From positions 8,165 through 72,164 of the forward strand of contig JBBSCB010000012.1 in the NCBI GenBank assembly GCA_038250675.1: 64,000 nucleotides of DNA. The letters run 5' to 3'. The stretch is from Gemmatimonadales bacterium. GTDB taxonomy: Bacteria > Gemmatimonadota > Gemmatimonadetes > Gemmatimonadales > GWC2-71-9. A program made the position numbers and the translations under genes. Shown here one piece after another: positions 25,280-61,122 of the stretch (position 1 is its first letter; each line of letters starts with the position of its first letter). The notes beneath the pieces were generated by a model, which was not told the origin of the DNA, ran no database searches, and saw only the letters and a program-made list of their open reading frames with translations.

Positions 25280-25480
25280 TGGGGTCGTGTCGAGATCGGT
25301 GCGTCAGCTGGGCTCTGGCCCCTTCGCTTCGCTCAGGGTGACATTCGGGGTCGCGTTGGGATTGGTGCGTTAACCGCGGCTCTGGCCACTTCGCTTTGCT
25401 CGGGGCGACATCCGGAATGGCGTTGGAACTGGTGTGTCAACTGCGGCTCTGGTCCCCTCGCTTTGCTCGGGGCGACGTTC
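25280..25480. repeat. Three degenerate 67-bp tandem units, each ending in a reverse REP-like palindrome
   Basis: REP copies at 25317-25343, 25384-25410, 25451-25477; the sequence between copies is also homologous. Confidence 0.85.
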
Positions 25481-25556
25481 GAGTGTAGGTGAGCTCCGGT
25501 GTCGCTGGATCGGCATCGATCGAGGCCCAGACCTCGGAGCGACGGATGGACCCAGA

Positions 25557-26017: not shown

Positions 26018-26054
26018 GGGCGGTGAATCGAGACCGGTGCGGCGGGGTGGGTTT

Positions 26055-26196
26055 GGCCCCCTCGCTGCGCTCAGGGTGACCTCCTGGTGCAGGTGACGTC
26101 CAGTGTCCCCGACGTCTCTGGATCGGCATCGATCAGGCCCCGCGCATCGGAGCGACGGATAGACCCAAATGTCACCCTGAGCGCAGCGAGGGGGCC
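26055..26196. repeat. Divergent REP-like pair (REPIN-like)
   Basis: Reverse copy 26055-26080, forward copy 26170-26196; 26091-26198 is a near-direct repeat of 25487-25585. Confidence 0.85.
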
Positions 26197-28877: not shown

Positions 28878-28960
28878 GGCCCCCTCGCTGCGCTCGGGGT
28901 GACGTCGTGTCACAAACGGGTCGCACCAAACAAATGTCACCCTGACCGAAGCGAAGGGGC
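28878..28960. repeat. REP-like pair between convergent genes at the 3' end of the kinase array
   Basis: GGCCCCCTCGCTGCGCTCGGGGTGAC (28878-28903) and TGTCACCCTGACCGAAGCGAAGGGGC (28935-28960). Confidence 0.85.
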
Positions 28961-28980
28961 TGGTGCCCGCGGCTCGAGCG

Positions 28981-39565: not shown

Positions 39566-41968
39566 TCAGCCGCCGCCCTGCAGGCCGAGCCGTCTGAGCA
39601 GGGCGCCGAATCGGGGGTCCCGCTGGAACGCCGGGTTCAGAATCTCCCCGCGTACCAGCGGCAACAGCATCGACCGCTCCTGAACCGCGAGGTCCAGATC
39701 ATGAAAGGCCCCATCAAAGTCGCCCAGCTCCGCTCGCCAGTCGGCCCGCTCGAACCACAGCTTGCCGGCGGTGAATGCCTCGATCTGCTTCCGACAGACC
39801 GCGTCGTGTCCGCCCGACTGCCAGGCGCGCCGCAGCACGGCAGCCGGCGCGCCGGCGCGGGTCGAGTTGGCCTGGAGACGCTCCTGCGCCGCGAAGAACG
39901 CCGCGGTGTCACCCCGCACGAAATAGATCCGCGCGATCCAGCGGAGCGCGAGCGGCAGCGTGGGATCGAGTTCCAGCGCCTTCGTCAGCCGAATCATCGC
40001 CTGGGCTGTATCGCCTTGCGCGAGGAAGATTTTGCCGAGGTTCGTGTTGGTGATGGCCGAGAGCGGATCCAGTTGCAGTGCCCTCGTGAACGACTCCAGC
40101 GCCCGGTCCGTCTGCCCCGCGGCGTCCAGCACATCGGCGTACCATTTGTGAGCGTTGACGTACCCTGGGCTCAACTCGATGGCTCGACGAAAGGCAGTGT
40201 CCGCCTTCGGCAAATCCCAATCCTGCAGCAGCAGCAGATAGGCCCGGGTCGTCACGGCCTCGCCGAAGTCGGGATCGATCGCCAGGGCCCGATCGACGGC
40301 CGTCCTGGCCTGGGCGAGGGTGGCGATGGAGGGCACGTTGGAATAGAAGCCAAGCACGATGTAAGCGTCGGCAAGACCGGTCCATGCCTGCACGAAGAGG
40401 GAATCCCGCGCCAGCGCCTGTTGGAACAGGCCGATCGCACGTTCGACGTCGATCGTGGTGCGCTTGGCCTGGTAGAAACGACCCTGCAGGTACAGGTCGT
40501 ACGCCTCGGGATCGCGGGTCGCGGTCCCCGCCCCACGGACCGCGCCGGCAAGGACTCGACCTCGAAGGGCCGCGATCACCGCTCGGGCGACTTCATCCTG
40601 AACGGCGAAAATGTCGGTGGTGCTTCGATCGAAGGTCTCCGACCAGAGACTGACGCCGTCCGCGGCCTTCACCAGCTGGGCCGTGATCCTGAGCTTGTCT
40701 CCTGCCCGCTGGACGCTCCCCTCGAGGACCGTCGAGACGCCTAATGAAGCCCCGATCTCCCGTACATCCACGTTCTTGCCCCGAAACGAGAACGCCGAGG
40801 TCCGCGCGGCCACGTCCAGGCCGGGCACGTTGCCGAGCGCGCTGATCAGGGTTTCGGCGATCCCGTCGCCGAAGTATTCGTTGGTGCGGTCGGCGCTCAG
40901 GTCAGAGAACGGCAACACCGCGACCGATGCGTTCTCGGCCGGCGCCACTCCTGGCCGGGCAGGCCGCCCCCAGACGATCACCGCCGCGAGGATCGCCACG
41001 ACCGCGATCGCCGCCGCGATGAAACCAAGCGGCCCTCGGCGCCGGCCCAGGACCGCCTCGGGAGGCAGCGGAGCCCGTTCTTCCCGGGCGGCCAGTGCCC
41101 CGGCGAACTCACCGCACCCGGCCCACCGATCCGCCGGCGACTTGGCGAGGGCGCGCTGCACCGCGGCGTCGACACCGGCGGGTACCTCAGGGCGGACGCT
41201 CCGAATCGGCCGCGGCGTCTCGGTCATCAATCGGGAAATGACGACCCGCGCCGTCGCGCCGGTGTGGGGCGGTTCTCCGGTCAGCATTTCGTAGGCTATG
41301 GCACCCAGCGCGTATTGATCGGCCCGGGCATCGACGCTGCGTTCCCCGGCCGCCTGCTCGGGGCTCATGTAGCGCGGCGTGCCCAGGGAGAGGCCGGTCT
41401 GGGTCAGTCGCTCGCCGCCGGCCTCGGCGACGGCCAGGGCAATTCCGAAGTCCGCGATGACGGGCTGCCCCGACTGGAGCAGGATGTTCTCGGGCTTGAG
41501 GTCGCGATGGACGATCCTCTGGGCGTGGGCATAGTCGAGCGCGTTGGCCAGCAGCCCGATCAGGCGGACCACTTCATCGACGGGCAACTGGGAGGCCGCG
41601 TCCAAACGGGCCCGGAGGGTTGGCCCTTCGATATAGGGCATGACGTAGTAGAGGAACGAACGAGGCCCTTCGCTGCGCTCGGAATGGTCGGCGAACACTT
41701 CGCCCGAGTCGAACAGTGGAAGGAGATTCGGATGCCGAAGGTTGGCGGTGACCTTGATCTCGGCGAGGAATCGGTCGGCGCCGAGCACGGCGGCGAGTTC
41801 GGGCTTGAGGACCTTGATGGCCACCTGGCGATCGTGCTTGAGGTCGCGCGCCAGATAGACCGTGGCCATGCCACCCTGACCGAGCTCGCGCTCGATGCGA
41901 TACCGGTCCGCAAGCGCGCTCGCGAGCCGGTCCGCCGCCACATTCGCGAACCGTGATTCGTCACTCAT
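39566..41968 (-). CDS. Ser/Thr kinase - TM - TolB-N/TPR (K5), with REP-derived insert
   Basis: HRDLKPEN, DFG; SVAVLPFSDLS..NEYFGDG; insert VFADHSERSEGPRS; ATGA overlap with K6. Confidence 0.93.
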   Translation of the reverse strand: MSDESRFANVAADRLASALADRYRIERELGQGGMATVYLARDLKHDRQVAIKVLKPELAAVLGADRFLAEIKVTANLRHPNLLPLFDSGEVFADHSERSEGPRSFLYYVMPYIEGPTLRARLDAASQLPVDEVVRLIGLLANALDYAHAQRIVHRDLKPENILLQSGQPVIADFGIALAVAEAGGERLTQTGLSLGTPRYMSPEQAAGERSVDARADQYALGAIAYEMLTGEPPHTGATARVVISRLMTETPRPIRSVRPEVPAGVDAAVQRALAKSPADRWAGCGEFAGALAAREERAPLPPEAVLGRRRGPLGFIAAAIAVVAILAAVIVWGRPARPGVAPAENASVAVLPFSDLSADRTNEYFGDGIAETLISALGNVPGLDVAARTSAFSFRGKNVDVREIGASLGVSTVLEGSVQRAGDKLRITAQLVKAADGVSLWSETFDRSTTDIFAVQDEVARAVIAALRGRVLAGAVRGAGTATRDPEAYDLYLQGRFYQAKRTTIDVERAIGLFQQALARDSLFVQAWTGLADAYIVLGFYSNVPSIATLAQARTAVDRALAIDPDFGEAVTTRAYLLLLQDWDLPKADTAFRRAIELSPGYVNAHKWYADVLDAAGQTDRALESFTRALQLDPLSAITNTNLGKIFLAQGDTAQAMIRLTKALELDPTLPLALRWIARIYFVRGDTAAFFAAQERLQANSTRAGAPAAVLRRAWQSGGHDAVCRKQIEAFTAGKLWFERADWRAELGDFDGAFHDLDLAVQERSMLLPLVRGEILNPAFQRDPRFGALLRRLGLQGGG
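41663..41689 (-). repeat. Intragenic in-frame REP-like copy in K5
   Basis: Coding strand GACCATTCCGAGCGCAGCGAAGGGCCT matches the intergenic consensus GTCAyCCTGAGCGCAGCGAAGGGGCC. Confidence 0.75.
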
Positions 41969-44697
41969 CGATTCGCGGCGTCCACGGCGGCTTCCATCTG
42001 CCTGACCCAGTTGGGGATGACCCGCAGGAAGGAGGGATGGGCCTGTTCGGGACTCTGAACATAGATGATCCCGCCGTCATATGAGGGGCGATTCGACCAA
42101 CCAGAGGTATCCGAGAAGCGGGGGTCACGGGCCCAGAAGGTCCCCGCACCAAGCGGCTCCCCGGTCTCGGGGTTGACCCGGGCCAGGTACCACGAGACAC
42201 CGAGCCGGTAGAGGATCTCGGAGGAGGAGAGAAAGAGCGGCTCGACGCCCTGGGTGGCGATCTGCCACTGGCGCCCCGCCCGGGGGAACGTGGTCACGAT
42301 GATGCGACCGCCCTCCAGCGACTGGTACACGACCAGCTTCTGGTTGGGAGAGACTGAGGGGAAACGCGCGCCGGTGAGCACGGTATCGAAGGTGGGATGT
42401 GCGACGCTCGGGTTGAACCGCACCACGATCGACCGGCCCCAGTCCTGGGCCACCGCAAGCGTATCGTCAGGGTAGCCCACCGGATCGAACGACTGGGGAA
42501 GGCTCGCCTGGTTGAAGGCGCCGGTGTCCACCGGGAAGCGCGCCAGGGTGTCGACCGATCCGCCCGACCCCGGAGCGCCGCGAAGGACGTACCACCGGAT
42601 CTTGTCGTGCGCCTGGTAGATCACCTGCTGGCCGTCGGGACTCCAGAGCGGGTGGCGCATCACCTCCGCCCGCTGCCAGACGTAGTGCTGGCCGTCCCGG
42701 AGATCATAGACCCGCAGCTCGTTCAGGTCGGGTCCCTGCACCACCGCCACCAGCCAGCGCCCATCGCGAGTGAGGTCGTAGCGCTGGAAGTCTCCCGCCT
42801 CCATCGGCAGCGCCTCGGGCGCGTGGCCGGGGCGCAGCCGGACCACATGGCCGACACTGGCATCGATGCCGGGGGCAAAGAGCAGGGTGCCATCCGCCGA
42901 AAGGTCGAACTGACTGGACCCGAGCGGTTCACGTCGCACCCCGGTCAGGAGGCTCACCGATCGATAGGCCAGATGCTTCACCGGATCGTACCGCGCCCCC
43001 GTGAGCGATCCGTCGGCCGCGATGAACAGGAGGTAGCGCCGCTCGACCACCCGGAAGGCGGAGCCGGCGACGGGGCTCCCCGGCGTGCCATCTGCCTGGA
43101 CCGTGCGGATGGGCCACACCGCCCCCGACTCCGGGTTCATCATCTGGGCGGTTCCGTTGAAGGAACAGATCAACTCACCGAGATCCGGCTCGTAAGTGCC
43201 GATCACACAGCGGCCAACCGACTTGGTGCGGGGCACCCCGCCCCCCGGTTCGATCCAGTTGATGCGATAGCCATCGTCGTCGACGAGAATGAGTTGCCTG
43301 GACGACACCCAGCTCACCAGCGTCGCGTTCACCGCCGTCCCCGCGGGCCGTGACTCGCCGCCCGCAACGGGCGCCAGCATGATCTGCCCATGGGCCACGT
43401 AACTCACCTGGGCGCCATCGGGAGAGATCCGCGGGATCGTGGCGCCGAGGGTCCCGGCCAGCGGGCGTGCCTCAGCAGTCCGGAGACTGCGGTACCAGAG
43501 CGTGGTGGAGTCGCCGATCGCGGCCGCGTAGACGGCGAACTCCCCATTCGCGGCGATCGAGAGATTGCGGATCGCCGTCCCGTACGGCCCGGCGCTCGAG
43601 GAGCCGGGCGCAAAGCTCATCAACGCGCTGTCGGGGAGGCCCACGTCGAACACCGCGGGCCCGGCGTATGGCGCCGGGCGAAGCAAGGCCCATGCGGCAA
43701 TCGCGGCAGTGCTGAGCGTGGCCACCCCGAGCACGATTGCGATGCGCCGCCACGACCGTCCGGACCCACCCACCGCACGAGCCGAGCGGGTCCGCGTGCG
43801 AGGCACGGCATCGTCGCGCAGTGCCGCGGCAAAGTCGGCGGCGGTCGCGAAACGATCGACCGGCAGCTTGGCGAGGGCGGTGAGCACCGCGTCCTCCACG
43901 TTCTCGGGGACGGTATCGCGCGTGGCCGTCGGTGCCGTCGGCTTCTCGGTCATGACCTTGGCGACGATCGCCTGCACTGACGCGCCGTTGAACGGTGGCT
44001 CGCCGGTGAGCATCTCGTAGAGGACGCAGCCGAGCGCATACACATCGCTGCGCGCGTCGAGATCGCGCTGCCCCATCGCCTGCTCGGGGCTCATGTAGTG
44101 CGGGGTGCCGAGCGACATCCCGGTCTCGGTCATCCGGGACCCGCCGTCGGTGCGGCTGGCGGCCAGGGCAATGCCGAAATCGGCCACCAGCGCCTGGCCG
44201 TCGTGCAGCAGGATGTTCTCCGGCTTGATGTCGCGGTGGATCACGCCGTGCCGATGGGCGTAGTCGAGGGCACTCGCCACTTCGGTGGCAATCCGCACCG
44301 CTTCCGGAATGGCGAGCTGCTTTTCGCGGGTGAGCCGGTCACGCAACGACTCGCCGGTGACGTACGGCATCACGTAGTACACGAGGGTGAGAGGTCCTTC
44401 GACTTCGCGACCCTGCGGGTCGCTCCGCTCAGGATGACTCAGGCGCACAGCGCCTGAGTCAAACAGCGGCAGGATGTGGGGGTGCTGCAGGTTGGCCGTC
44501 GTCTTGATCTCGACCAGGAAGCGCTCGGCGCCGATGACGGCGGCGAGTTCCGGGCGCAGCACCTTCAGCGCGACCTGGCGGTCGTGCCTGAGGTCGTGGG
44601 CGAGGTAGACGGTGGCCATGCCGCCGGCGCCAAGCTCGCGCTCAAGGGTGTAGCGGTCGGCGAGGGCGGCCGAGAGTTGGTCAAGCGCTTCGGTCAC
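41965..44697 (-). CDS. Ser/Thr kinase - TM - beta-propeller (K6), with REP-derived insert
   Basis: Kinase motifs; insert AVRLSHPERSDPQGREVEGPLT after DSG. Confidence 0.93.
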   Translation of the reverse strand: MTEALDQLSAALADRYTLERELGAGGMATVYLAHDLRHDRQVALKVLRPELAAVIGAERFLVEIKTTANLQHPHILPLFDSGAVRLSHPERSDPQGREVEGPLTLVYYVMPYVTGESLRDRLTREKQLAIPEAVRIATEVASALDYAHRHGVIHRDIKPENILLHDGQALVADFGIALAASRTDGGSRMTETGMSLGTPHYMSPEQAMGQRDLDARSDVYALGCVLYEMLTGEPPFNGASVQAIVAKVMTEKPTAPTATRDTVPENVEDAVLTALAKLPVDRFATAADFAAALRDDAVPRTRTRSARAVGGSGRSWRRIAIVLGVATLSTAAIAAWALLRPAPYAGPAVFDVGLPDSALMSFAPGSSSAGPYGTAIRNLSIAANGEFAVYAAAIGDSTTLWYRSLRTAEARPLAGTLGATIPRISPDGAQVSYVAHGQIMLAPVAGGESRPAGTAVNATLVSWVSSRQLILVDDDGYRINWIEPGGGVPRTKSVGRCVIGTYEPDLGELICSFNGTAQMMNPESGAVWPIRTVQADGTPGSPVAGSAFRVVERRYLLFIAADGSLTGARYDPVKHLAYRSVSLLTGVRREPLGSSQFDLSADGTLLFAPGIDASVGHVVRLRPGHAPEALPMEAGDFQRYDLTRDGRWLVAVVQGPDLNELRVYDLRDGQHYVWQRAEVMRHPLWSPDGQQVIYQAHDKIRWYVLRGAPGSGGSVDTLARFPVDTGAFNQASLPQSFDPVGYPDDTLAVAQDWGRSIVVRFNPSVAHPTFDTVLTGARFPSVSPNQKLVVYQSLEGGRIIVTTFPRAGRQWQIATQGVEPLFLSSSEILYRLGVSWYLARVNPETGEPLGAGTFWARDPRFSDTSGWSNRPSYDGGIIYVQSPEQAHPSFLRVIPNWVRQMEAAVDAANR
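44392..44460 (-). repeat. Intragenic REP-like copy plus 25-bp hairpin in K6
   Basis: Coding strand GTCATCCTGAGCGGAGCGACCCGCAGGGTCGCGAAGTCGAAGGACCT, preceded by GACTCAGGCGC-TGT-GCGCCTGAGTC. Confidence 0.8.
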
Positions 44698-44814
44698 GTG
44701 CAGCTCCCGTGGGACCGGCGGAGCGACTCCGGCTGGGCGAAAGTCGCGGAAGAGCGACTGGAGGAATCCTTACAAAATAGTGATATCAGGAAGAGGTATG
44801 GCGGATTCGGCGAT

Positions 44815-45243
44815 TCACGCCAACGGGTGGCACCACCGCAATTCGGGGAATCGCGCGAAGTCACGGTCCGTGGTCACGAACTCGCAGCCGGATTCGATCG
44901 CCAGAGCCGCGAGCCAGGCATCGGGAACAAGATTTCCTTTCGCGCCAGCTTCCCGACAGAGCCGCTGGAAGATCTCCCAGTGGCGGAGTCCAGGAGCGAT
45001 CATCACCGCGTTCGGTTGGGTGCGAAATGCATTCGCAAAGCCCAGCGCCGCATCGATGGGTGTCGGCGGATGGAAGATGCGCGGGTGGGTCGCAATGCGG
45101 AGAAAGCTGGCGAGCACCTGATCGGATACGGCGTAGGCTTCATCTGACCGAACCAATGCGTCGAGCCACGCCCGATGCGCCGTATGCTCAGGGGCGCCTT
45201 CCCTGAAGGCGTGGACGAGGATGTTGACGTCAACGAGTCGCAG
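44815..45243 (-). CDS. vapC: VapC-family PIN-domain toxin (probable CTG start, 142 aa)
   Basis: LVDVNILVHAF…FLRIATHPRIF…GNLVPDAWLAALAIE…TTDRDFARF; GAGGA 8 nt upstream of CTG; in-frame stop just further upstream. Confidence 0.88.
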   Translation of the reverse strand: MRLVDVNILVHAFREGAPEHTAHRAWLDALVRSDEAYAVSDQVLASFLRIATHPRIFHPPTPIDAALGFANAFRTQPNAVMIAPGLRHWEIFQRLCREAGAKGNLVPDAWLAALAIESGCEFVTTDRDFARFPELRWCHPLA

Positions 45244-45541
45244 TGGGGCTATCCTCGTCCATCAGGTCGAGAAGTGCCGCGCTGTCGTCGAGATCGACCC
45301 CCGGAGCGAGTACACCACCGGCAAAGGTCGGCAGTGGCGTTCTCCCGCCCTCGGCCGCGCCCGGGCGCGTGGACGTCTGGGCCTCGAGTGCTTCCAAGCC
45401 ACGACGGAGGATGTCTGACTTGGTCGTGCCGAGGCGCGCGGTGAGCCGTTCCAATCGCTCGCGGTCTGGTGGCTGCAGGTAGACCTGCACCGGCTCAGCC
45501 ACGCGGGACGGCCGTTTAGGCGGTTCATGACGATATGTCAT
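45230..45541 (-). CDS. Ribbon-helix-helix (CopG-like) antitoxin, VapB-type
   Basis: VQVYL…RLERLTARLGTTKSDILRRGLEAL; C-terminal PGVDLDDSAALLDLM; overlaps vapC. Confidence 0.8.
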   Translation of the reverse strand: MTYRHEPPKRPSRVAEPVQVYLQPPDRERLERLTARLGTTKSDILRRGLEALEAQTSTRPGAAEGGRTPLPTFAGGVLAPGVDLDDSAALLDLMDEDSPTATR

Positions 45542-45576
45542 GAAATCATGATATGATTGGGAGCGTCCGCTGTCAA
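45524..45576 (-). promoter_or_regulatory. Sigma70 promoter (leaderless) and palindromic operator of vapBC
   Basis: TTGACA (45576-45571) -17nt- TATCAT (45553-45548), 6 nt before ATG; palindrome TTCATGAC-5-GTCATGAA at 45524-45544. Confidence 0.8.
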
Positions 45577-45624
45577 GTCGGCCTGTTACGGGGCGCAACC
45601 ATGATGCTCACCGCTCCAGCCCCG

Positions 45625-46116
45625 TCAGTAGGGACGATCCAGCGTGTGTGCCCCAACTCGAACAAGTGCCGCGACATCTTCGAGTTGTCGCGCCGAGCCA
45701 CCGAGCCGAGCCCACTCGAGTTTCGAGATGATGATGTCCTCGGCTGTAGCGACCCACAGGTGAATACCATCGAAGTCGATAGCTTCGCGACGGGAGAATT
45801 CCAGCTGACTGAAGGGACGTGACTTGCAGAGGATCACGTCCGCTTTCCATCCGGTTTCGGTGTCGACAATGTTGAACATCGATTCGTGGGCCAGGGCCTC
45901 GAGCGCCGCATCGCGCGAGATGTACAGGCCCGGGCCGTCCAGCGCATCGACTGCGGCTCCCAGCTGTGCCGCGCTCGCCTGGATCACCATATCCACGTCC
46001 ATCGTCGCTCGACCGGCACCGTGCACCGCGGCCCCGACTGACCCGGTCAACATGAACGGCACCTCGTGTGCGTTCAGGGCGGACACGATCGATCGCAATA
46101 GTCCGGCAAGACTCAC
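45625..46116 (-). CDS. Pol-beta-superfamily nucleotidyltransferase (DUF6036/AbiEii-like toxin), C-terminus possibly truncated
   Basis: MLTGSVGAAVHGAGRATMDVDMV (GS + DxD), TAEDIIISKLEW, RQLEDV; GTGA coupling to the upstream gene. Confidence 0.75.
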   Translation of the reverse strand: MSLAGLLRSIVSALNAHEVPFMLTGSVGAAVHGAGRATMDVDMVIQASAAQLGAAVDALDGPGLYISRDAALEALAHESMFNIVDTETGWKADVILCKSRPFSQLEFSRREAIDFDGIHLWVATAEDIIISKLEWARLGGSARQLEDVAALVRVGAHTLDRPY

Positions 46117-46616
46117 CGGCGGTGGCTCGCGGGCACCAGCCGGACACCCAGCAACAGCTCGACAAGTTCGAGATCACTCTGGCCCGGTCGACCCTTGCGC
46201 AGTCCGGCAAGCGTCACGACGCGCATCGCATCGCTCAACGCCAGCGCCTGTCGCAATCGGTCGACTCGGGGGCGGCCCCGTACCGCCTTCAGGCGAATGA
46301 TCTCTGCCGCGGATGTCGTGTCCGAGAAAGGCCACCCTCGGCTGGCGCTGCCGGGAGCGAGGAGGCGCGCGCCGGTCTGCCGCGCATTGTCCTGCCCGTA
46401 CCCGATCAAGCGCTCGGCGACCCAGGGGATGTCGTCCTTCGCAAGGATGCGATCAGCGGGGAAGGACGGGAAACACTCATCATGGAAACGACGGAAGGCC
46501 CGGCGTGCCTCGCGGAGCCGGACCATTTGGCGTGCGGTCTCCGGGTCGAGGGTTCGGCGGCTTTTGAGGCCGCCCCGCCGGCCGATGGCGGCGAGATATT
46601 TGCTCACCTTTGACAT
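46113..46616 (-). CDS. Putative antitoxin/partner of the nucleotidyltransferase, apparently two fused modules
   Basis: N-part IGRRGGLKSRR…EARRAFRRFHDECF…WVAERL; C-part SDTTSAAE…RLRQALALSD…AGLR. Confidence 0.65.
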   Translation of the reverse strand: MSKVSKYLAAIGRRGGLKSRRTLDPETARQMVRLREARRAFRRFHDECFPSFPADRILAKDDIPWVAERLIGYGQDNARQTGARLLAPGSASRGWPFSDTTSAAEIIRLKAVRGRPRVDRLRQALALSDAMRVVTLAGLRKGRPGQSDLELVELLLGVRLVPASHRR

Positions 46617-46622
46617 CCAAAT

Positions 46623-46651
46623 ATCATAATCCGCTTATGATGTAAGTTCAA
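46623..46651 (-). promoter_or_regulatory. Sigma70 promoter (leaderless) with palindromic operator
   Basis: TTGAAC (46651-46646) -17nt- TATGAT (46628-46623), 6 nt before ATG 46616; palindrome ATCATAA-5-TTATGAT at 46623-46641. Confidence 0.75.
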
Positions 46652-46695
46652 GTGTTAGAGTGCTGTACGATGATCATCGTGCGCTGACGCCGTGA

Positions 46696-49359
46696 TCACC
46701 GCACCCCATCCACCACGAAGAGCGTCGAGGCATAGCCGAGGGCAATGACTGCGTACGTCCGCCCATCGTCCGCGAGGCGCAGATACTGGTATTGCCGCAC
46801 CCCGGCGCGTCCCGGCGGAGCAATGTCGATGAGTGGCGAGCGTTGGCCAGTGGCGGGATTCACTCGTTCGACCCGCACCGCGAGGTCGCCGGGCCGCCAG
46901 ACCCAGAGCTCGCGTCCATCCGGACTCCAGCGCACCAGGTGGTCGTGAGGACGCAACCCGCGCGCTGGCTGTGACGGGCCTCCGGCAACGGCGATGAGCA
47001 CGAAGCTGTCCCGCACCTGGGCGGCGATGCGCGTGCCATCGGGGGAGAGCGCCGCCTGGAGAGTGCCTTCCGGCGTGACCGGCGTGAACGTGCCGCCGGC
47101 GGTGGTCGCGATGTAGCATCGCACCGAGTGGCCCGCCTGACTGCCGCACATGAAGACGCGCTGGTCATCGACGAACTGCCCGGTGACGTACGATATCGTT
47201 TCGAACTGTCCCTGATCCAGCCGGCGTGGTTCTCCCGGGCCGGTGGGATAGATCATCAGCCGCGGCGGCACCGAGGGGACGATCGCGAGCACCGATTGCC
47301 CGTCGCGCGACAGTGCCATCGGCTCGCCGTCGCCGAGCCGCGCCGCCGGCGAACCGTCGGTCTTGCGCAGCAGGAGACCGTAGTTGAGGCCCCCGGTCAC
47401 ACCCTGGTCGGCGAATGCAACCAGCTTTCCATCGGCGCTGATCACGGGCGTCTCCGAGACATCCAGCCAACTCAGGTCCCGTTCATGATCCGGCTCCGGA
47501 CCTCCAACCAGCAATCGATAGGGCAGGTCATCGTGGGTGACCAGCCATCGGTTACTGGCCGAGATGTCCTGCAGCGTGATGCCGCCGGCGCTGGCGAGTG
47601 CGAGTTGCATGCGGCCATGCAGGTCCATCGAGTACGCGGTCAGCGCGGTGTACGACCCATTCGTCGCCGTCGAACCGGTGTACATCACGCGATCCGGCTC
47701 CCGTGACCATGCCAGCCCTTCCAGCGCCCAATGCACCGGCGACCGGGCGAGCACAGCACCGTTGCGACCCAGGATCACGACGGTGCCTCGATCGTCGTAC
47801 AGCGCCTGGTGATCGAAGAGCGCCACCTGGTCCCCGGTTGGCGACACGCGGATGTCGGAGAAATACCCGGCCGAGCGAGCCAGCACCGTGCCGATGGGAT
47901 ACTCCACCCGGTCCTCATCGTCGACCCGATGGATGATCGCGAGTGTCTTGCCATCGGGCGACCAATCCGCCTCGCGAACGCCGGCGAGCAGCGCGCGCGG
48001 CGCCCCGGGTCCGAGCGGCAGGGAGGCAAGCGTGCCCTCGAACAGGCGGTGGTTCGCGTAGACCGCGCCAGTAAGGACGGCCAGCGTACCGGTCGACGAG
48101 ATCGCCAGCAGGTGGGTGGAGTCCGGTCCCAGCGGCTGTGGCTCTGGGTAGTCGGGGCGGATGACGTACAAATGGGGAACGGTGCCGCTGGCGCCGGTGG
48201 AACTGAAGACGACGGTCTTGCCGTCGGGGGCGAACCGCGCGGTGAAGATCGCCTCCGGGCGGTAGGTCTGCTGCGTGAATCGCACGTCGGTCAGGGTACC
48301 GGCGGCGCGGCGCTGGGTCAGCATCACGAGGAGCAGTGCCGCGACGATCGCGGCCATGCCCCACGACCAGGGATTGGCCAGCCAGGCGGCGAGTCTTCGC
48401 GTTGGCGCAGTGACTGCGCGGCCCGCGGCGGACCGCCGGCCTGCCACTCCCGGGGTACCGAGCGCGTCGGCGAATCCCTTCGCGCTCTCGAACCGATCGG
48501 CCGGCAGCTTCTGCAGTGCGACGTGCACCGCATCGGCGACGTGCGGCGGCACGGTGCGGCGCAGGGTGGTGAGCTCCGGCGCGTCGGCCGTCATGATCTT
48601 CGCGACGATCGCTTGCGCCGTCGGACCCGAGAACGGCGGCTCGCCGGCCAGCATCTCGAACGTCACGCAGCCGAGCGCGTAGATGTCGCTGCGGGCGTCG
48701 AGCTCGCGCTCCCCCATCGCCTGTTCGGGCGACATGTATTGTGGTGTGCCGAGCGACATGCCGGTCTCGGTCATCCGGTTGCCCGCGGTGCTCGCGGCGA
48801 TGGCGATCCCAAAATCGGCCACCAGCGCGCTGCCGTCGTGCAGCATCACATTTTCCGGCTTGATGTCGCGATGGATCACGCCGTGGCGATGGGCGTAATC
48901 GAGCGCGCTGGCCATCTCGGACGCGATGCGGACCGCGTCGCCAATCGGCAGTTGCTTCTCACGCGTGAGACGGTCGCGCAACGATTCGCCCTGCACGAAC
49001 GGCATCACGTAGAACAACACGCTTCGTGGTCCCTCGACTTCGCCGTCGTCCGGATCCCCATGCTCAGGCTGACCCAGGCGAACCGCTCCTGAGTCGAAGA
49101 GCGGCAGGATGTGCGGATGCTGCAGGTTCGCGGTGGTCCTGATCTCCGCCAGGAAGCGCTCGGCGCCGATCACGGCCGCGAGCTCGGGCCGCAGGACTTT
49201 CACCGCCACCTTGCGGCCATGCTTGATGTCGTGTGCGAGGTAGACCGTGGCCATGCCACCGGCGCCCAGCTCGCGCTGGATGGTATAGCGGTCGGCGAGG
49301 GCGCTGGCCAAACGGCCGACTCCGCCCATGGACGGAGACGGCGGCACCGGAGTGGTCAC
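46696..49359 (-). CDS. Ser/Thr kinase - TM - beta-propeller (K7), with decayed REP-derived insert
   Basis: GTG start overlaps the K8 stop (GTGA); insert AVRLGQPEHGDPDDGEVEGPRS; sensor paralogous to K3. Confidence 0.93.
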   Translation of the reverse strand: MTTPVPPSPSMGGVGRLASALADRYTIQRELGAGGMATVYLAHDIKHGRKVAVKVLRPELAAVIGAERFLAEIRTTANLQHPHILPLFDSGAVRLGQPEHGDPDDGEVEGPRSVLFYVMPFVQGESLRDRLTREKQLPIGDAVRIASEMASALDYAHRHGVIHRDIKPENVMLHDGSALVADFGIAIAASTAGNRMTETGMSLGTPQYMSPEQAMGERELDARSDIYALGCVTFEMLAGEPPFSGPTAQAIVAKIMTADAPELTTLRRTVPPHVADAVHVALQKLPADRFESAKGFADALGTPGVAGRRSAAGRAVTAPTRRLAAWLANPWSWGMAAIVAALLLVMLTQRRAAGTLTDVRFTQQTYRPEAIFTARFAPDGKTVVFSSTGASGTVPHLYVIRPDYPEPQPLGPDSTHLLAISSTGTLAVLTGAVYANHRLFEGTLASLPLGPGAPRALLAGVREADWSPDGKTLAIIHRVDDEDRVEYPIGTVLARSAGYFSDIRVSPTGDQVALFDHQALYDDRGTVVILGRNGAVLARSPVHWALEGLAWSREPDRVMYTGSTATNGSYTALTAYSMDLHGRMQLALASAGGITLQDISASNRWLVTHDDLPYRLLVGGPEPDHERDLSWLDVSETPVISADGKLVAFADQGVTGGLNYGLLLRKTDGSPAARLGDGEPMALSRDGQSVLAIVPSVPPRLMIYPTGPGEPRRLDQGQFETISYVTGQFVDDQRVFMCGSQAGHSVRCYIATTAGGTFTPVTPEGTLQAALSPDGTRIAAQVRDSFVLIAVAGGPSQPARGLRPHDHLVRWSPDGRELWVWRPGDLAVRVERVNPATGQRSPLIDIAPPGRAGVRQYQYLRLADDGRTYAVIALGYASTLFVVDGVR
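49028..49095 (-). repeat. Decayed intragenic REP-like copy in K7
   Basis: Coding strand GACTCAGGAGCGGTTCGCCTGGGTCAGCCTGAGCATGGGGATCCGGACGACGGCGAAGTCGAGGGACC, collinear with the K6 insert. Confidence 0.65.
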
Positions 49360-52214
49360 CGCACCGGCCCGAGATATTTGTCGAACCACTTCAGCGTCTC
49401 GGAGATCAGCGCGGTGCGCGGGACATCATGGCCGCCCTCGTAGACGATCCATTTCTTCTCATCGCTCGGGGTGCCGAGCAGTTCGAAGAACGGCTTCTGG
49501 GCCAGCTCGAGCGGGAAGAAGAAGTCGTACTTGCCGTTGAGCATCAGCACCGGCTGCTTCACGCGAGGCAGAAAGTTGAGCGGATCGACCTCGGGCCGCC
49601 CGAGCTCCATGGTGAGGCCCGCCACGTAGAGCACCGCCGCCTTGAACCGCGGTTCGATTGCCAGGTTGATCGGTGCCTGGTTGGAGCCCCAGCTATAGCC
49701 GAAGTAGGCAAACCTGGTCGAGTCCATGTCGGGCCGGCTGGAGAGGTAGTCCAGCGTGCGGCGCATGTCCTGGGACCACATCACCACGTGCTGTCGCCAG
49801 AAGATCGAGCTGTCGGGCAGGTCACTGTGGAGCGAGTCGCGCCGTTCGTAGGTGCTCTTGAGGATCGGCAGGATGAAGGCGCGGCCGTTCTGGGCGAGGA
49901 ATCCCGGCACCAGGTCGCTTCGCGCCACGCGATCGCTGAAGATCACCCCTGAGCCGGGAAACTCGACGACCGGCTGCAGCGGCTGGTCATGGTGCTTCGG
50001 CGTCAGGATCACGGCCTCGACGCGTTCACTGCCATAGGCCGCGTCGAAGCTGACCCGCTCCATGTTCCACGCTTCCTCGGTGGTGTCGCGCGACTCCACC
50101 TTGGCGTTCAGCGGCCGGCGGTCGTAGTCGAAGATCGGGCGGTAGCTGGCGAACACCTCATCCGATACCGGCTTCTCCCTGGTGTAGTCACGAAAGGCTC
50201 GGGTCATCGGCAGGCGGGCCCTGGCGAGCGCCGAGTCGTCGTCGCGGTACCTCACCAGCCGAATCCCGTTGATCGCCGAGCGGTCCATCGACGCCTGGGC
50301 GTAGCCGTCGGTAAAGCCGTACTTCGGGTCGCTCCACCCACCACCGAGGATGAAGTGCTCGTCACCGCCGGCAGCGTTCTCGCACCACTCGCGCACGTTG
50401 CCGGCCATGTCGAAGACACCGTAGTAGCTCAGGCCGCGCGGCGTGGTGACCGGCATCGGCCCGGTGCCGCCGAGGTTGCTCCCCGGCACGACATACTTGG
50501 CGGCGGCAACGTTGGCGGCGCGCGCCCAGCTGTAGATGGTCGGCAGCGACTTGCCGGCGAACCGGGCGTAGGCGGCCGCCTCGTACCAGCTCACGCCGCC
50601 GACCGGCTCGTCACCCTGATCGTTCGGGTAGCTGCCCGCCTCCCAGGTGGATGGACCGGACTGCCCGGTCTTGTCGCGCAACATGGACATCGCCGCGTCC
50701 CAGGTGAGCGTCTTCGCGCCATCCTGGAACTCCGTCGGCCAGTATTCCCTCCTGGTGTACCCGCCCGAATCCACGAACGCCTTGAATTGCCGATTGCTGA
50801 TCTCGTGCATGTCCATCTGGAAGTCGGCGAGCGACAGCTCGTCATGTCCGTCGAGCCCGACCAGGAAGACGCCGTAGGTGCCGGGCGAAAGGTGCACCAT
50901 GTCGCTGTCGGCGGATCCCACCGAGTCGAGCATGAAGGTGCGGTTGCCGTTGCCGATCAGTCCCCGAAAGGCCCGGAATCCCGGCTTCTCCACCCGCACC
51001 ATTCCGTACTGCGACGGCAGCCGCAGGGTGTCGGTGGGCGTGGTGCCGAGCAGGACCCAATGGGTGGTGTCATCGAAGGAGGCCCGATAGATCCGGGCGC
51101 CTTCGGGGGTCGAATGGATCACGGCGTTGCGGGAGAGCCGGGGCCAGAGTGTCGCGAGGGCGGAGTCGCCGGGGACGATCGCCTCGGCCCGCTGCGCCAA
51201 TGTCCAGGCACTGTCGATCTGGGCCACATCGAGATGCGCCTTGATCTGCGGGATCGCCTCGTTGCGCACCCAGCGCCGTGCCCGCATCCCCGAGGTGCCG
51301 AACCAGACGGCCACCGCCAGGACGGCAGCGGCACCGAGCCAGGCCAGGAGCCGTCCCGACCGCGCGGGGGCGGTACTGGCACTGGCCTCGAGGTCGGTGA
51401 GGAGGGCATCGGCGGTCTGATAGCGCGCCGCCGGGTTCTTGGCGAGGCACTTCATCACCGCGCGCGCGAGCGCAGGCGGCAGATCGGGACGGTTGGTGAT
51501 CGGGGCGGGTACGGTGCTGATGTGAGCCGCCATGATCGCCTGCGGCGTGCCCGCGAAGGGAGCCTTGCCGCTCAACATCTCGTAGGCCAGGACGCCCAGG
51601 GAGTAGATGTCGGCGCGGTGATCGAGGTCGGGGTCGGCGGCCACCTGCTCCGGCGACATGTAGGCGGCGGTACCAACCGATGTACCCATCTGGGTAAGCG
51701 TTACGGCATCTGCACTGACCCGGGCGGCATCGAGCGCCTTGGCGATGCCGAAGTCGGTGACCTCGGCGGCGCCATGCGAAAGCAGGACGTTGTCTGGCTT
51801 GATGTCGCGATGCACCACCCCGTGCTGGTGGGCATAACTCAACGCCCGCGTCACGTCACGGAGGATGCTGAGGCACTCGGCGAGCGGGAGCGGAACGCCG
51901 GTCGCGAGTCGGACCCGGAGCGACTCCCCTGCCACGTAGGGCATGGTGAAGTATGGCAGGCCGTCCATGTCGCCGGCGGTGAGGAGGGGGACGATGTTGG
52001 CCTGCTGCAGCGCTGCCACCACCCGGATCTCGCGCTCGAAGCGCTCGGCATTGATGCCGGCGGCGAGGTCGGGCGGCAGCACCTTCACCACGACGGTGCG
52101 ACCGAGGCGGGTGTCCTCGGCAAGGAAGACGCGCGACATCCCTCCGCCACCGAGCTCGCGCCCAAGCAGATAGGACTGGCCGAGGGTTGCCTGCAACTGT
52201 TCCCTGAGGTCCAT
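49356..52214 (-). CDS. Ser/Thr kinase - TM - FGE-sulfatase domain - alpha/beta hydrolase (K8)
   Basis: GGGGMSRVF, HRDIKPDN; PVGGVSWYEAAAYARF, DMAGNVREW, GGGW; GYSWG, NGKYD, GGH triad. Confidence 0.92.
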   Translation of the reverse strand: MDLREQLQATLGQSYLLGRELGGGGMSRVFLAEDTRLGRTVVVKVLPPDLAAGINAERFEREIRVVAALQQANIVPLLTAGDMDGLPYFTMPYVAGESLRVRLATGVPLPLAECLSILRDVTRALSYAHQHGVVHRDIKPDNVLLSHGAAEVTDFGIAKALDAARVSADAVTLTQMGTSVGTAAYMSPEQVAADPDLDHRADIYSLGVLAYEMLSGKAPFAGTPQAIMAAHISTVPAPITNRPDLPPALARAVMKCLAKNPAARYQTADALLTDLEASASTAPARSGRLLAWLGAAAVLAVAVWFGTSGMRARRWVRNEAIPQIKAHLDVAQIDSAWTLAQRAEAIVPGDSALATLWPRLSRNAVIHSTPEGARIYRASFDDTTHWVLLGTTPTDTLRLPSQYGMVRVEKPGFRAFRGLIGNGNRTFMLDSVGSADSDMVHLSPGTYGVFLVGLDGHDELSLADFQMDMHEISNRQFKAFVDSGGYTRREYWPTEFQDGAKTLTWDAAMSMLRDKTGQSGPSTWEAGSYPNDQGDEPVGGVSWYEAAAYARFAGKSLPTIYSWARAANVAAAKYVVPGSNLGGTGPMPVTTPRGLSYYGVFDMAGNVREWCENAAGGDEHFILGGGWSDPKYGFTDGYAQASMDRSAINGIRLVRYRDDDSALARARLPMTRAFRDYTREKPVSDEVFASYRPIFDYDRRPLNAKVESRDTTEEAWNMERVSFDAAYGSERVEAVILTPKHHDQPLQPVVEFPGSGVIFSDRVARSDLVPGFLAQNGRAFILPILKSTYERRDSLHSDLPDSSIFWRQHVVMWSQDMRRTLDYLSSRPDMDSTRFAYFGYSWGSNQAPINLAIEPRFKAAVLYVAGLTMELGRPEVDPLNFLPRVKQPVLMLNGKYDFFFPLELAQKPFFELLGTPSDEKKWIVYEGGHDVPRTALISETLKWFDKYLGPVR

Positions 52215-60706: not shown

Positions 60707-61122
60707 TGTCATCCCGAGCGACCCTGAGCGCAGCGAAGGGGAGTCGAGGGATCTACTCCGCGTGAAATCGACACCAGTCTGAGGCGACGGCCTGCGGACT
60801 CCTCGGCGCGATGTTCGGGAATCGCTCGGCACTTCCACGTCTACATCTGAGCCAGCCGCGCGCAAACCTTCTACGTCGGCGTCACGGGCAATCTCCTGCG
60901 CCGGTTAGCCCAGCACCGAAACGGCTCATCGGAATTTACGGCCCGGTACCGGGTGGATCGCCTGGTGTACTACGACGAGACGGCGGACGCGCGGCAGAAG
61001 AACGTCCAGCTGATCGAGCGATCGAACGCCCGCTGGCTGGACCTCGCCCGGAATTGGTTCGGCCCTGTGCCTGAGTAGATCCCTCGACTCCCCTCGCTGC
61101 GCTCGGGTCGCTCGGGATGACA
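60707..61122 (+). mobile_element. TIR-bounded GIY-YIG element, decayed (element B)
   Basis: ~50-bp near-perfect inverted repeats at 60707-60758 and 61073-61122, differing by two 1-nt indels, enclosing a GIY-YIG pseudogene. Confidence 0.75.
60821..61078 (+). pseudogene. GIY-YIG nuclease pseudogene
   Basis: IARHFHVYI*ASRAQTFYVGVTGNLLRRLAQH…FTARYRVDRLVYYDE…NARWLDL; no ATG (ATC), TGA at 60848-60850, AIxREKxxKGW segment deleted. Confidence 0.85.

What the first reader, a model, noticed from the sequence alone, without database searches (positions are those of the whole stretch)
41655..49095. REP palindromes inserted in frame into the same kinase loop and turned into protein
Seen: most kinases have 5 residues between DSG and LYY. 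K5 has +11 aa (…DHSERSEGP…, 41663-41689), K6 +18 aa (…SHPERSDPQGREVEGP…, 44392-44438) and K7 +18 aa (decayed, 49028-49073); K11 has +7 aa of unclear origin. The K5 insert matches the short REP of element A. The K6/K7 insert resembles the longer form seen in element B's TIR. Known: Rickettsia palindromic elements insert into coding genes and add surface loops; this position is the exposed beta4-beta5 turn of the N-lobe. Inference: at least two independent insertions at one hotspot, followed by domestication (K7 lost the DNA symmetry but kept frame and length). This directly links the REP/GIY-YIG element to kinase diversification.
Basis: partly seen in the sequence, partly recalled or inferred. 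Interest (0 to 1): 0.85.

Follow-up and report, generated by a model that had tools for sequence, protein, structure and literature searches.

The report
REP repeats built into kinase loops
A short palindromic DNA repeat that normally lies between genes has been built, in frame, into the same surface loop of several signalling kinases of a Gemmatimonadota bacterium and its relatives, so a selfish repeat has become part of working proteins.

Summary
K5, K6 and K7 carry 16-, 23- and 23-residue loops where 38 of 44 kinases of this genome have 5 residues.

The insert DNA is REP DNA. K5 ranks 26th of 6.43 million positions against a profile built from 23 REP copies that excluded the kinases. K6 is the only site besides the six long REPs that carries both long-REP ends.

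In 30 distinct kinase loops from other assemblies that encode HPERSEG, the synonymous codons follow the REP consensus rather than host usage: Ser AGC 30 of 30, Gly GGA 27 of 30. Two hairpin pairs covary at third codon positions.

An AlphaFold model puts the insert at the tip of the beta4-beta5 hairpin.

The inserts are derived and lineage-specific. K5's nearest paralogues are exactly 33 nt shorter. Long loops occur in 1 of 53 kinase matches in two REP-poor sister families.

- Independent origin of the K5 and K6/K7 inserts is not shown. Near-identical loop cassettes sit in divergent kinase backbones, and a gene-conversion tract spans one insert.
- REPs also sit in frame in an NrdJ-like reductase and a fused aldehyde dehydrogenase.
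- An unrelated palindromic repeat family occupies the same kinase loop in another genome.

This is a new variant of Rickettsia-type in-frame palindromic elements.

The parts
39566..41968 (-). K5, Ser/Thr kinase with TPR C-terminal part (800 aa)
   Evidence: Translation; Pkinase E 8.7e-41 and TPR families
41654..41701 (-). K5 beta4-beta5 loop, 16 codons; REP core (DHSERSEGP) at 41663-41689
   Evidence: matrix score 15.7 bits, rank 26 of 6.43 M; exactly 33 nt longer than the nearest paralogues
41965..44697 (-). K6, Ser/Thr kinase (910 aa)
   Evidence: Translation; Pkinase E 2.9e-46; PknB 3f69 E 1.7e-58
44383..44451 (-). K6 loop, 23 codons
   Evidence: AlphaFold model has strands 80-86 and 103-111 with coil between them, pLDDT about 53 for residues 91-100
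44393..44438 (-). K6 long-REP-like unit, 46 nt: both ends as in the long REP, with a different inner hairpin
   Evidence: The only non-REP place among 7 two-block hits in the genome
44407..44423 (-). Inner 7-bp hairpin (GCGACCC GCA GGGTCGC) nested in the REP loop; part of the 21 nt that K6/K7 have beyond the K5 form
44435..44461 (-). Perfect 12-bp inverted repeat joining the F-D-S-G-A codons (with rare TTT and TCA) to the R-L-S-H codons of the insert
   Evidence: (K6 region -41.9 kcal/mol, z -4.54, 0 of 200 shuffles)
46696..49389 (-). K7, Ser/Thr kinase with PD40/TolB-like part (897 aa)
   Evidence: Translation; Pfam
49018..49086 (-). K7 loop, 23 codons; decayed copy of the K6-type insert
   Evidence: fold z -0.15; orthologues with the insert in G003 and G001
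63945..63980 (-). K11 loop, 12 codons; origin unclear, not REP-like by the matrix
25317..26196 (.). Seven short REP copies (25317-25343, 25384-25410, 25451-25477, 25557-25583, 25992-26018, 26055-26081, 26170-26196) around a GIY-YIG gene
25562..25879 (-). Small GIY-YIG nuclease gene flanked by the REPs
   Evidence: PF01541 E 1.7e-12
28878..28961 (.). Inverted pair of short REPs (28878-28904 and 28935-28961)
   Evidence: (I23)
60708..61121 (.). Two long REPs in inverted orientation (60708-60753 +, 61078-61121 -) around a GIY-YIG remnant with an internal TGA (60830-60991)

Best explanation
A REP family (core GTCAYCCYGAGCGNAGCGARGGRNC, a weak hairpin) is dispersed between genes and flanks small GIY-YIG nuclease genes. 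Copies of it have been inserted into the DNA that encodes the beta4-beta5 turn of the N-lobe in members of the large Ser/Thr kinase family of this Gemmatimonadota lineage. Read in its one hydrophilic open frame, the repeat gives (S)HPERSEG(P/S). The kinase stays intact, and the flanks of the insert lengthen the two strands while the REP core forms a flexible tip. K5 carries the 33-nt form. K6 and K7 carry that form with a further 21-nt hairpin nested in the REP loop, the same nesting seen in the long REPs that flank GIY-YIG genes. Shown here: the REP origin, the frame, the position, the derived state, and persistence of K5 in a same-genus genome where this insert is the only REP match. Inferred: the site recurs because it tolerates insertions and is bracketed by the two most conserved DNA stretches of the family. 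An insert that arises once can therefore be copied between tandem paralogues by short-tract gene conversion, and new insertions of this and other palindromic repeats add to the set. The hairpin pairing is still kept inside coding sequence, either by selection on DNA or RNA structure or by conversion from genomic REPs.
For: REP identity of the DNA: K5 rank 26 of 6.43 M; K6 matches a REP at 20 of 21 nt, E 0.009; K6 is the only non-REP place among 7 two-block hits. Codon evidence: 30 distinct kinase loops encoding HPERSEG were retrieved with a fully degenerate pattern (40 loci; 37 kinase hits, 3 non-kinase). Ser is AGC in 30 of 30 (host usage 0.28), Gly GGA in 27 of 30 (0.12), His CAT in 25 of 30 (0.34), Pro CCG in 0 of 30 (0.50). 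Covariation at third codon positions: Pro3-Glu3 is UA 12, CG 11, UG 1, other 2; His3-Gly3 is UA 21, CG 3, other 2, among 26 distinct rows; 0 of 500 shuffles reach the observed score. Derived state: K5's nearest relatives G000:C52 (80% identical) and G003:C35 (78%) are 228 nt against 261 nt over the same query span and group with K5 at SH-aLRT support of 100%. Long loops occur in 1 of 53 kinase matches with E at most 1e-13 in eight genomes of families f2 and f3, against 9 of 21 in G012, 2 of 14 in G007 and 6 of 44 in G000 (I counted these from match lengths). Persistence: G003 has one REP-core match in the whole genome, which is the K5 orthologue's insert. Not one vertical origin: the AU test rejects a single clade of 14 REP-loop kinases among 58 rows (p 3e-41, log-likelihood difference 290). 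Conversion: EVLVEH[PS]E[RQ]SEGPRSF sits in K5, P0030 and P0061, whose domains are 58-61% identical to K5, while each has closer short-loop relatives at 73-82%. Two tandem paralogues in G012:C138 share a 300-nt tract of 100% identity across the insert, flanked by 77-95%. Position: the PknB alignment and the AlphaFold model, mean pLDDT 85.6. Tolerance is not limited to kinases: REP lies in frame in an NrdJ-like reductase (a 20-aa insert absent from the same-genus orthologues in G003 and G004) and in the linker of a fused aldehyde dehydrogenase.
Against: No insertion event was caught with an empty site in the same kinase orthologue; the empty sites are paralogues. The 30 loops are related to one another, so the binomial tails overstate significance. 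The covariation may be inherited from two REP variants (T-A and C-G) rather than maintained in place. The short REP alone does not fold better than shuffles (z -0.19), nor do the K5 (z +0.38) or K7 (z -0.15) regions. The K5 insert is no better conserved than its flanks between G000 and G003 (0.92 against 0.88 overall). Only one clear conversion tract was seen. The sample was drawn using words from the K6 loop and is biased towards long loops. Tolerance plus conversion does not by itself explain why 40 HPERSEG-like motifs lie in the loop and 0 lie elsewhere in 123 kinases (107,398 residues), which include long linkers; the 'inside' count is biased, the 'outside' count is not.
Confidence: 0.72

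Rival explanations
1. Site-specific targeting: the machinery that moves these repeats (the GIY-YIG nuclease, or hairpin-directed insertion) recognises the DNA of this turn, so each insert class is a separate targeted event and gene conversion plays a minor part.
For: Heterogeneous junctions: loop lengths of 13, 14, 16 and 20 residues and about 18 different flanks by my count among 30 distinct loops. No HPERSEG-like motif lies outside the loop in 107,398 residues of these kinases. A second, unrelated palindromic family occupies the same loop in at least 4 kinases of G012. Nesting of a hairpin inside the REP loop in K6/K7 and in the long REPs suggests insertion into hairpin tips. In 7 of 30 loops the 5' end of the insert is complementary over 6-12 bp to the DSG codons.
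Against: That complementarity is absent in 23 of 30 loops. The palindromy of the ancestral 5-codon loop is explained by its peptide alone: observed 3.47 pairs of 7, null 3.35, with 318 of 2000 null draws as high. REPs in NrdJ and the aldehyde dehydrogenase show no such target. Identical cassettes, non-REP flanks included, occur in divergent backbones. No biochemical data exist.
Confidence: 0.2
2. The inserts are kept because they are useful to the protein: they enlarge a hairpin next to the N-lobe back-to-back dimer surface and tune which of the roughly 60 paralogues pair, so positive selection rather than mutational bias makes the site recur.
For: The Asp of DSG aligns with the Asp of PknB's YDTG, which I take to be Asp76. 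D76A together with L33D is used to break the back-to-back dimer (passage in PMC13434768). The peptide is conserved across the EVLVE group while 6 of 11 codons differ synonymously between K5 and L060 (my count). Several unrelated repeats have been fixed at the same site.
Against: The tip is predicted with low confidence. No dimer model or assay was made. Residue numbering is inferred from an offset in the chain. Conservation at synonymous sites and hairpin covariation point to nucleic-acid rather than protein constraint.
Confidence: 0.15
3. The loop peptides are an old feature of the kinase family or a peptide-level convergence, and their likeness to the REP is coincidental.
For: The K5 and K7 inserts are shared with same-genus genomes, one nearly REP-free. 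The 16-residue length is common: 36 of 123 stored proteins.
Against: Synonymous codons match the REP, not host usage. The matrix rank. Nearest paralogues lack the insert. Sister families have 1 long loop in 53 matches. The same REP occurs between genes in an Ignavibacteria and an Alphaproteobacteria assembly.
Confidence: 0.03

Closest known systems
Rickettsia palindromic elements (RPEs) inserted in frame into protein-coding genes
   Same: A dispersed palindromic repeat occurs both between genes and inside ORFs. It is read in frame, leaves the host protein intact and sits where the fold tolerates it (review PMC10969869, passages seen; the original Ogata et al. papers are recalled, not read).
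   Different: RPEs are about 150 bp and were reported in unrelated genes at unrelated sites. Here the unit is 27-33 nt (up to 69 nt when nested) and adds 9-18 residues. It recurs at one turn of one paralogous family, appears to move between paralogues by conversion, and keeps hairpin covariation at synonymous sites. Sequence relation to RPEs was not tested.
REP / REPIN sequences mobilised by RAYT (Y1) transposases
   Same: Short, imperfectly palindromic, dispersed, often in inverted pairs, patchy among close genomes, and flanking a small nuclease gene.
   Different: The flanked gene is a GIY-YIG nuclease, not a tyrosine transposase. The consensus shows no GTAG or CGTC end tag (family definition taken only from the title and the start of the abstract of PMC3733652). 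RAYT genes were not searched for. REPs are by name extragenic, whereas these are coding.
MITEs that create in-frame fusions (BOX, ERIC and others listed in the review)
   Same: A non-autonomous repeat gives extra peptide inside genes (PMC10969869).
   Different: No terminal inverted repeats or target-site duplication could be defined for the kinase inserts, and they are far shorter.
The variable beta4-beta5 loop of Hanks-type kinases such as PknB
   Same: Same structural position; PknB itself has a longer turn than the 5-residue form here.
   Different: Here the extra residues can be traced to identifiable repeat DNA.

Membership tests
Hanks-type Ser/Thr protein kinase | Pkinase domain above the curated threshold | tested here: met
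   PF00069 scores 140.5, 158.5 and 155.7 bits for K5, K6 and K7 against a cut-off of 31.7
Hanks-type Ser/Thr protein kinase | Catalytic Lys, HRD Asp and DFG Asp present | tested here: met
   K45, H154-R155-D156 and D173-F174-G175 are invariant in the 25-sequence alignment A1
Hanks-type Ser/Thr protein kinase | Sequence likeness to a solved kinase over the whole domain | tested here: met
   PknB 3f69_A, E 1.7e-58, query residues 11-293
REP (repetitive extragenic palindromic) sequence | Short unit (20-40 nt) in many dispersed copies, mostly between genes | tested here: met
   23 seed copies and 6 long copies in a 3.2-Mb draft. Of the 33 sites examined (30 from the scan at 12 bits or more, plus 3 long-REP left ends), five lie in a long frame with coding-like GC3 on both sides. 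Three of those are true REPs (K5, NrdJ, aldehyde dehydrogenase); the other two are weak matches of 12-13 bits that I take for chance
REP (repetitive extragenic palindromic) sequence | Imperfect palindrome able to form a stem-loop | tested here: inconclusive
   A 4-5 bp plus 2 bp hairpin is predicted but is no better than shuffles (z -0.19). Two pairs covary, with 0 of 500 shuffles as high
REP (repetitive extragenic palindromic) sequence | Patchy copy number among close relatives | tested here: met
   Matches per genome: G000 30, G012 45, G007 13, G005 9, G011 8; the other 16 genomes have 1-5, against reversed-pattern controls of 0-5
REP/RAYT (REPIN) system | Associated Y1 (RAYT) transposase and a GTAG or CGTC end tag | tested here: not met
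   The flanked ORF is GIY-YIG and the consensus has no such tag. Presence of a RAYT gene elsewhere in the genome was not tested
RPE-like in-frame palindromic element | The same repeat found between genes and inside intact ORFs, in frame | tested here: met
RPE-like in-frame palindromic element | Insertion at a surface site compatible with the fold | tested here: met
   AlphaFold model of K6 residues 1-300: coil between strands 80-86 and 103-111, with the rest of the domain confident
RPE-like in-frame palindromic element | Element of about 100-150 bp encoding a conserved peptide of tens of residues | tested here: not met
   27-33 nt; 54 nt longer than the 5-codon loop in the nested form
RPE-like in-frame palindromic element | Sequence homology to the Rickettsia RPE families | not tested
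   No RPE sequence was at hand; no Rfam family matched the REP region
MITE | Terminal inverted repeats and target-site duplication at the insertion | tested here: inconclusive
   A 5-nt direct repeat flanks the K5 core in both G000 and G003 (my reading), but no consistent duplication is seen across the 30 loops

The most novel reading that the evidence does not exclude
The beta4-beta5 turn of this kinase family may act as a cassette site. Dispersed palindromic repeats of at least two unrelated families would be captured there, kept as nucleic-acid hairpins inside the coding sequence, nested within one another, and shuffled between tandem paralogues by gene conversion. This would give each paralogue a different extension beside the N-lobe dimer surface and so insulate some 60 kinases per genome from cross-pairing, with the REP-associated GIY-YIG nuclease supplying the breaks that drive both insertion and conversion.
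Probability: 0.15. Interest if true: 0.85.

Novelty: new variant of a known kind. Interest (0 to 1): 0.66.

Why it matters
Most examples of selfish repeats becoming protein come from Rickettsia and involve long elements at scattered sites. Here a 27-33-nt REP is traceable at single-base resolution in one defined turn of a highly expanded kinase family.

Several features make it a good natural system for asking how repeats are exapted, whether hairpins are selected inside coding DNA or mRNA, and how paralogue families diversify a regulatory surface:
- filled and empty paralogues exist side by side
- there are older and decayed copies (K5, K7) next to a copy that still folds strongly as a hairpin (K6)
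- hairpin covariation falls on synonymous sites
- a conversion tract spans an insert
- a second repeat family has been captured at the same site.

It also gives an independent handle on the little-studied pairing of this REP family with small GIY-YIG nuclease genes, seen here in Gemmatimonadota and in an Alphaproteobacteria assembly.

A practical point: HPERSEG-type peptides in annotated proteins flag REP DNA, which may be genuine (as here) or spurious ORFs.

Tried and rejected
1. Palindromic target idea. The 5-codon loop (often EADGL/F) is the most palindromic position of the region, with a mean of 3.5 of 7 pairs over 81 distinct loops. Redrawing codons for the same peptides gives 3.35, and 318 of 2000 draws are as high. 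There is therefore no codon-level signal, and I dropped this as evidence.

2. Target mimicry, meaning that the REP 5' end is complementary to the DSG codons. Stems of 6 bp or more occur in only 7 of 30 loops, from 3 junction classes. It is real for the K6 class but not general.

3. Extra DNA conservation of the K5 insert between G000 and G003. Identity is 0.92 in the loop window against 0.88 overall, which is no signal.

4. Local excess of K6-K7 identity around the loop. None is clear: 0.73-0.85 against 0.69-0.88 for other paralogues.

5. Rfam. No family matches the REP region at E up to 1. The whole window at gathering scores gives only a riboswitch.

6. Sequencing runs. 21 runs were listed and only Logan contigs are held. 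Laying four of them mostly recruited kinase paralogues of other organisms. One contig of run X1 covers 44353-44530 with no differences, but that run may be the source sample and so is not independent. No excision variant can be read from contigs.

7. Literature. In the held library I found no paper with the peptide words HPERSEG, PERSEGS, HPERSEGS or SFRAQRGI (the 2 hits are unrelated). No bacterial GIY-YIG-plus-REP paper appeared among the 15 listed of 49. Nothing relevant appeared among the 10 listed of 20 for Gemmatimonad + palindromic + kinase. The Minerva preprint does not mention GIY-YIG.

8. Not run: complex prediction, fold search, the search of protein representatives and the protein-atlas search. 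The REP-origin claim does not depend on them.

9. K11 and the 19-residue loop at G000:C12:79677-79787 ('QAIVPPLHEGEPGIGGEAF') were not explained. Both contain small palindromes by eye, but no REP match.
Full report
**Setting.** The window is G000:C12:8165-72164, from a 3.2-Mb draft of 92 contigs with 69% G+C. Source names of close protein hits place it in Gemmatimonadota/Gemmatimonadales. The minus strand carries a tandem array of about a dozen Ser/Thr kinase genes. K5, K6 and K7 have Pkinase domains far above threshold, joined to TPR or PD40 parts. K6 aligns with PknB over residues 11-293 at E 1.7e-58.

**The observation.** Between the conserved DSG and [LVF][YF]YVMP, K5 has 16 residues, K6 and K7 have 23, and K11 has 12. 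In the whole genome, 39 of 45 kinases found with a strict motif have 5 residues; with a looser motif that requires a complete domain the figure is 38 of 44.

**The repeat family.** The core CCTGAGCGNAGCGAAGG with up to 3 mismatches occurs 15 times in the window against 1.67 expected. Genome-wide there are three forms:
- a short form, GTCACCCTGAGCGNAGCGARGGGGCC
- a rarer GTCATCC...GGATCT form
- a 44-46-nt long form, in which a short core is nested inside the loop of the GTCATCC...GGATC form; its six copies lie in three inverted pairs.

Seven short copies surround a small ORF at 25562-25879(-), which is a GIY-YIG domain protein (PF01541, E 1.7e-12). Homologues of that ORF lie between the long-REP pairs. 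One is intact (G000:C42:18974-19234). The one in the window (60830-60991) carries a TGA. No Rfam family matches.

**Are the inserts REP DNA?**
- A weight matrix built from 23 REP copies, kinases excluded, ranks the K5 insert 26th of 6,426,454 positions. Only the seeds and two REP-like sites rank higher.
- The K6 loop matches a GTCATCC-type REP at 20 of 21 nt. K6 is also the only place apart from the six long REPs that has both long-REP ends 10-40 nt apart (7 hits in all; each block alone gives 68 and 58 hits).
- An alignment shows K6/K7 as the K5-type insert plus 21 nt placed inside the REP loop. This is the same kind of nesting as in the long REP, although the nested sequence differs.

**An independent test from other assemblies.** I searched two public collections with a pattern that fixes only the peptide HPERSEG (all synonymous codons allowed), followed 9-18 nt later by YVMP codons.
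- Of 40 loci, 37 are kinases with the peptide in this loop, all named ones being Gemmatimonadota. Thirty are distinct. Three are non-kinase REP copies, including one in an Ignavibacteria and one in an Alphaproteobacteria assembly.
- In the 30 distinct loops, Ser is AGC in 30 of 30 (host usage 0.28), Gly is GGA in 27 of 30 (0.12), His is CAT in 25 of 30 (0.34), and Pro is never CCG (0.50).
- The loops are related to one another, so the binomial tails overstate significance, but the direction is unambiguous: the codons are those of the REP.
- Two stem pairs covary, both at third codon positions. Pro3-Glu3 is UA 12, CG 11, UG 1, other 2. His3-Gly3 is UA 21, CG 3, other 2, among 26 distinct rows. 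No shuffle of 500 reaches the observed score, and sliding the partner drops pairing from 94% to 17-49%.

**Derived or ancestral?**
- K5's nearest relatives in its own genome (C52, 80% identical over the query) and in G003 (C35, 78%) are exactly 33 nt shorter. They form a clade with K5 and its G003 orthologue at 100% SH-aLRT support.
- K5 and K7 orthologues that carry the inserts exist in same-genus genomes G003 and G001.
- G003 has a single REP-core match in the whole genome, and it is that K5 insert. Its reversed-pattern controls gave 3 and 2 matches. The insert therefore outlives the repeat family.
- In eight genomes of the two sister families f2 and f3, REP counts are at control level and no GIY-YIG homologue was found with this query (0 of 8). 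Only 1 of 53 kinase matches with E at most 1e-13 has a long loop. The comparison figures are 9 of 21 in G012, 2 of 14 in G007 and 6 of 44 in G000 (I counted these from match lengths).

**How many events?**
- A FastTree of 177 kinase domains with the loop removed needs 23 changes of the short-REP label, at least 13 of them on starred branches.
- On an IQ-TREE of 58 rows, the AU test rejects one clade of the 14 REP-loop kinases (p 3e-41). K6 and K7 are not sisters, although their loops are plainly homologous.
- This does not prove separate insertions. The cassette EVLVEH[PS]E[RQ]SEGPRSF, non-REP flanks included, sits in K5, P0030 and P0061. Their domains are only 58-61% identical to K5, and each has closer short-loop relatives at 73-82%.
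- Two tandem paralogues in G012:C138 share 300 nt of 100% identity spanning their insert, between stretches of 77-95%. Gene conversion between paralogues therefore moves loop cassettes.
- For K5 versus K6/K7, one insertion followed by conversion and divergence is as good an account as two insertions. Intermediate junctions (EVRLE, EVRLS) exist.
- Separate events are better shown by four other lines:
  - loop lengths of 13, 14, 16 and 20 residues with about 18 flank types by my count
  - a tandem REP duplication within one loop (L059)
  - a second, unrelated heptamer-based palindromic family with 111 matches in G012; its near-full-length matches lie in the two C138 kinases, in two further kinase loops and at one intergenic site
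  - two non-kinase genes of G000.

**Non-kinase genes.** Of the 33 REP sites examined in G000, five lie in a long frame with coding-like third-position G+C on both sides. Three of these are true REPs, namely K5 and two others; the remaining two are weak matches of 12-13 bits that I take for chance.
- One lies in an NrdJ-like ribonucleotide reductase, where a 20-residue segment (...HPSHPDRTPSHPERSEGS...) is absent from the same-genus orthologues of G003 and G004.
- One lies in the interdomain linker of a fused aldehyde dehydrogenase, preceded by an SPSPSPSP run made of the REP's own 5' hexamer.
- A peptide scan of 846,962 residues of coding-like ORFs finds only these two and K6. K5's ORF fell below the GC3 cut-off used in that scan.
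- REP insertion into genes is therefore not kinase-specific. The hydrophilic HPERSEG frame in variable linkers is what survives.
- Within 123 kinases (107,398 residues, long linkers included), all 40 HPERSEG-like motifs lie in this loop and none elsewhere. The site is thus favoured beyond simple tolerance, whether by conversion, targeting or selection.

**Structure, protein and nucleic acid.**
- The AlphaFold model of K6 residues 1-300 (25-row alignment, mean pLDDT 85.6) has strands at 80-86 and 103-111 with coil between them. The 91-100 block has pLDDT 53. The flanks of the insert lengthen the hairpin and the REP core forms a floppy tip.
- The Asp of DSG aligns with the Asp of PknB's YDTG. 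I take this to be Asp76, one of two residues mutated to break the back-to-back N-lobe dimer (passages of PMC13434768). The numbering is my inference from a three-residue offset in the chain.
- As RNA, the K6 region folds into a 12-bp hairpin that pairs the F-D-S-G-A codons (using rare TTT and TCA) with the R-L-S-H codons, plus a nested 7-bp hairpin. The energy is -41.9 kcal/mol, z -4.54, and 0 of 200 shuffles fold as well.
- K5 (z +0.38) and K7 (z -0.15) have lost such structure.

**Comparison with what is known.** In-frame palindromic repeats are established for Rickettsia RPEs and some MITEs (PMC10969869, passages). The present case differs in five ways:
- unit size (27-33 nt)
- recurrence at one turn of one paralogous family
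- apparent cassette exchange between paralogues
- hairpin covariation at synonymous sites
- the associated gene, a GIY-YIG nuclease rather than a tyrosine transposase. A GIY-YIG homologue (41% identical, E 2e-16) also lies next to REP copies in an Alphaproteobacteria contig.

I found no description of this in the held library.

**Verdict.** The REP origin of the inserts is well supported. The count of independent events for K5 versus K6/K7 and the causal role of the GIY-YIG element are not shown. I file this as a new variant of a known kind, of moderate to high interest.

Noticed in passing
window 16520-16609 (-): c-di-GMP-I riboswitch aptamer, 44.7 bits against a gathering score of 35.
   Followed up: no
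window 60561-60701: Array of about 11 or more copies of a 9-nt unit (GGACGGCTG) just upstream of the long-REP pair (family D11). In one frame it reads as LGR repeats at the end of a long spurious ORF.
   Followed up: no
window about 61100-61300 (-): Short frames read ...LYRLGVSWYL... and ...WVRHMKAAVDASNR..., resembling the C-terminal end of K6 (...ILYRLGVSWYLARV...NWVRQMEAAVDAANR). This is probably a remnant of a kinase 3' end beside the GIY-YIG/long-REP element.
   Followed up: partly
window 44698-46695: A 2-kb gap between K6 and K7 with lower G+C (0.645) holds a PIN-domain ORF (44815-45156, PF01850, E 2.8e-09) and two ORFs with no Pfam match. In G003 the syntenic stretch instead holds two short-loop kinases.
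   Followed up: partly
G000:C14:15322-15348 (-), locus L080/L082: REP in frame in an NrdJ-like ribonucleotide reductase (906-aa frame), with a partial tandem duplication of the REP 5' part. The 20-residue insert is absent from the G003 and G004 orthologues.
   Followed up: yes
G000:C6:118636-118662 (+), locus L081/L090: REP in frame in the interdomain linker of an 815-aa fused aldehyde dehydrogenase, preceded by four tandem copies of the hexamer CCGAGT (SPSPSPSP). The G003 and G004 matches to the same 627-nt query stretch span 33 nt less, although the linkers cannot be aligned.
   Followed up: yes
G012: L033 720-794 and 3407-3481; L077; L078; L076: A second dispersed repeat family built of GACCCTC-type heptamers in palindromic arrangement has 111 matches in G012. 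Among its six strongest matches, it fills the same kinase loop in at least 4 kinases and also lies between genes upstream of a gap-like gene.
   Followed up: partly
L033 (G012:C138): Two tandem kinase paralogues share a 300-nt tract of 100% identity spanning the loop insert, flanked by 77-95% identity. This looks like a gene-conversion tract.
   Followed up: partly
L047 3862-4303 (Alphaproteobacteria MAG contig): Two REP copies of the same family (3862+, 3944-) lie directly beside a GIY-YIG homologue (3995-4303, 41% identical, E 2e-16). A low-G+C copy of the REP lies between genes in an Ignavibacteria contig (L035). The REP/GIY-YIG pairing therefore crosses phyla.
   Followed up: partly
L036 1716-1781: A kinase loop made of tandem heptamers (TCACGAC-type), read as IASLTTHDSRLTDSLNTHDSRL. 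This suggests that the 'HESRV...DSRL' loops of many other kinases (17 of 177 rows) are direct and inverted copies of a heptamer resembling the D-S codons.
   Followed up: no
L037 / L044 (same contig), and the AARLS group L046, L054, L064, L073: Inserts with identical flanks differ in the Pro3-Glu3 pair: T-G against T-A in the first pair, and T-A against C-G in the second group. This looks like compensatory change or REP-templated conversion within one insert lineage.
   Followed up: partly
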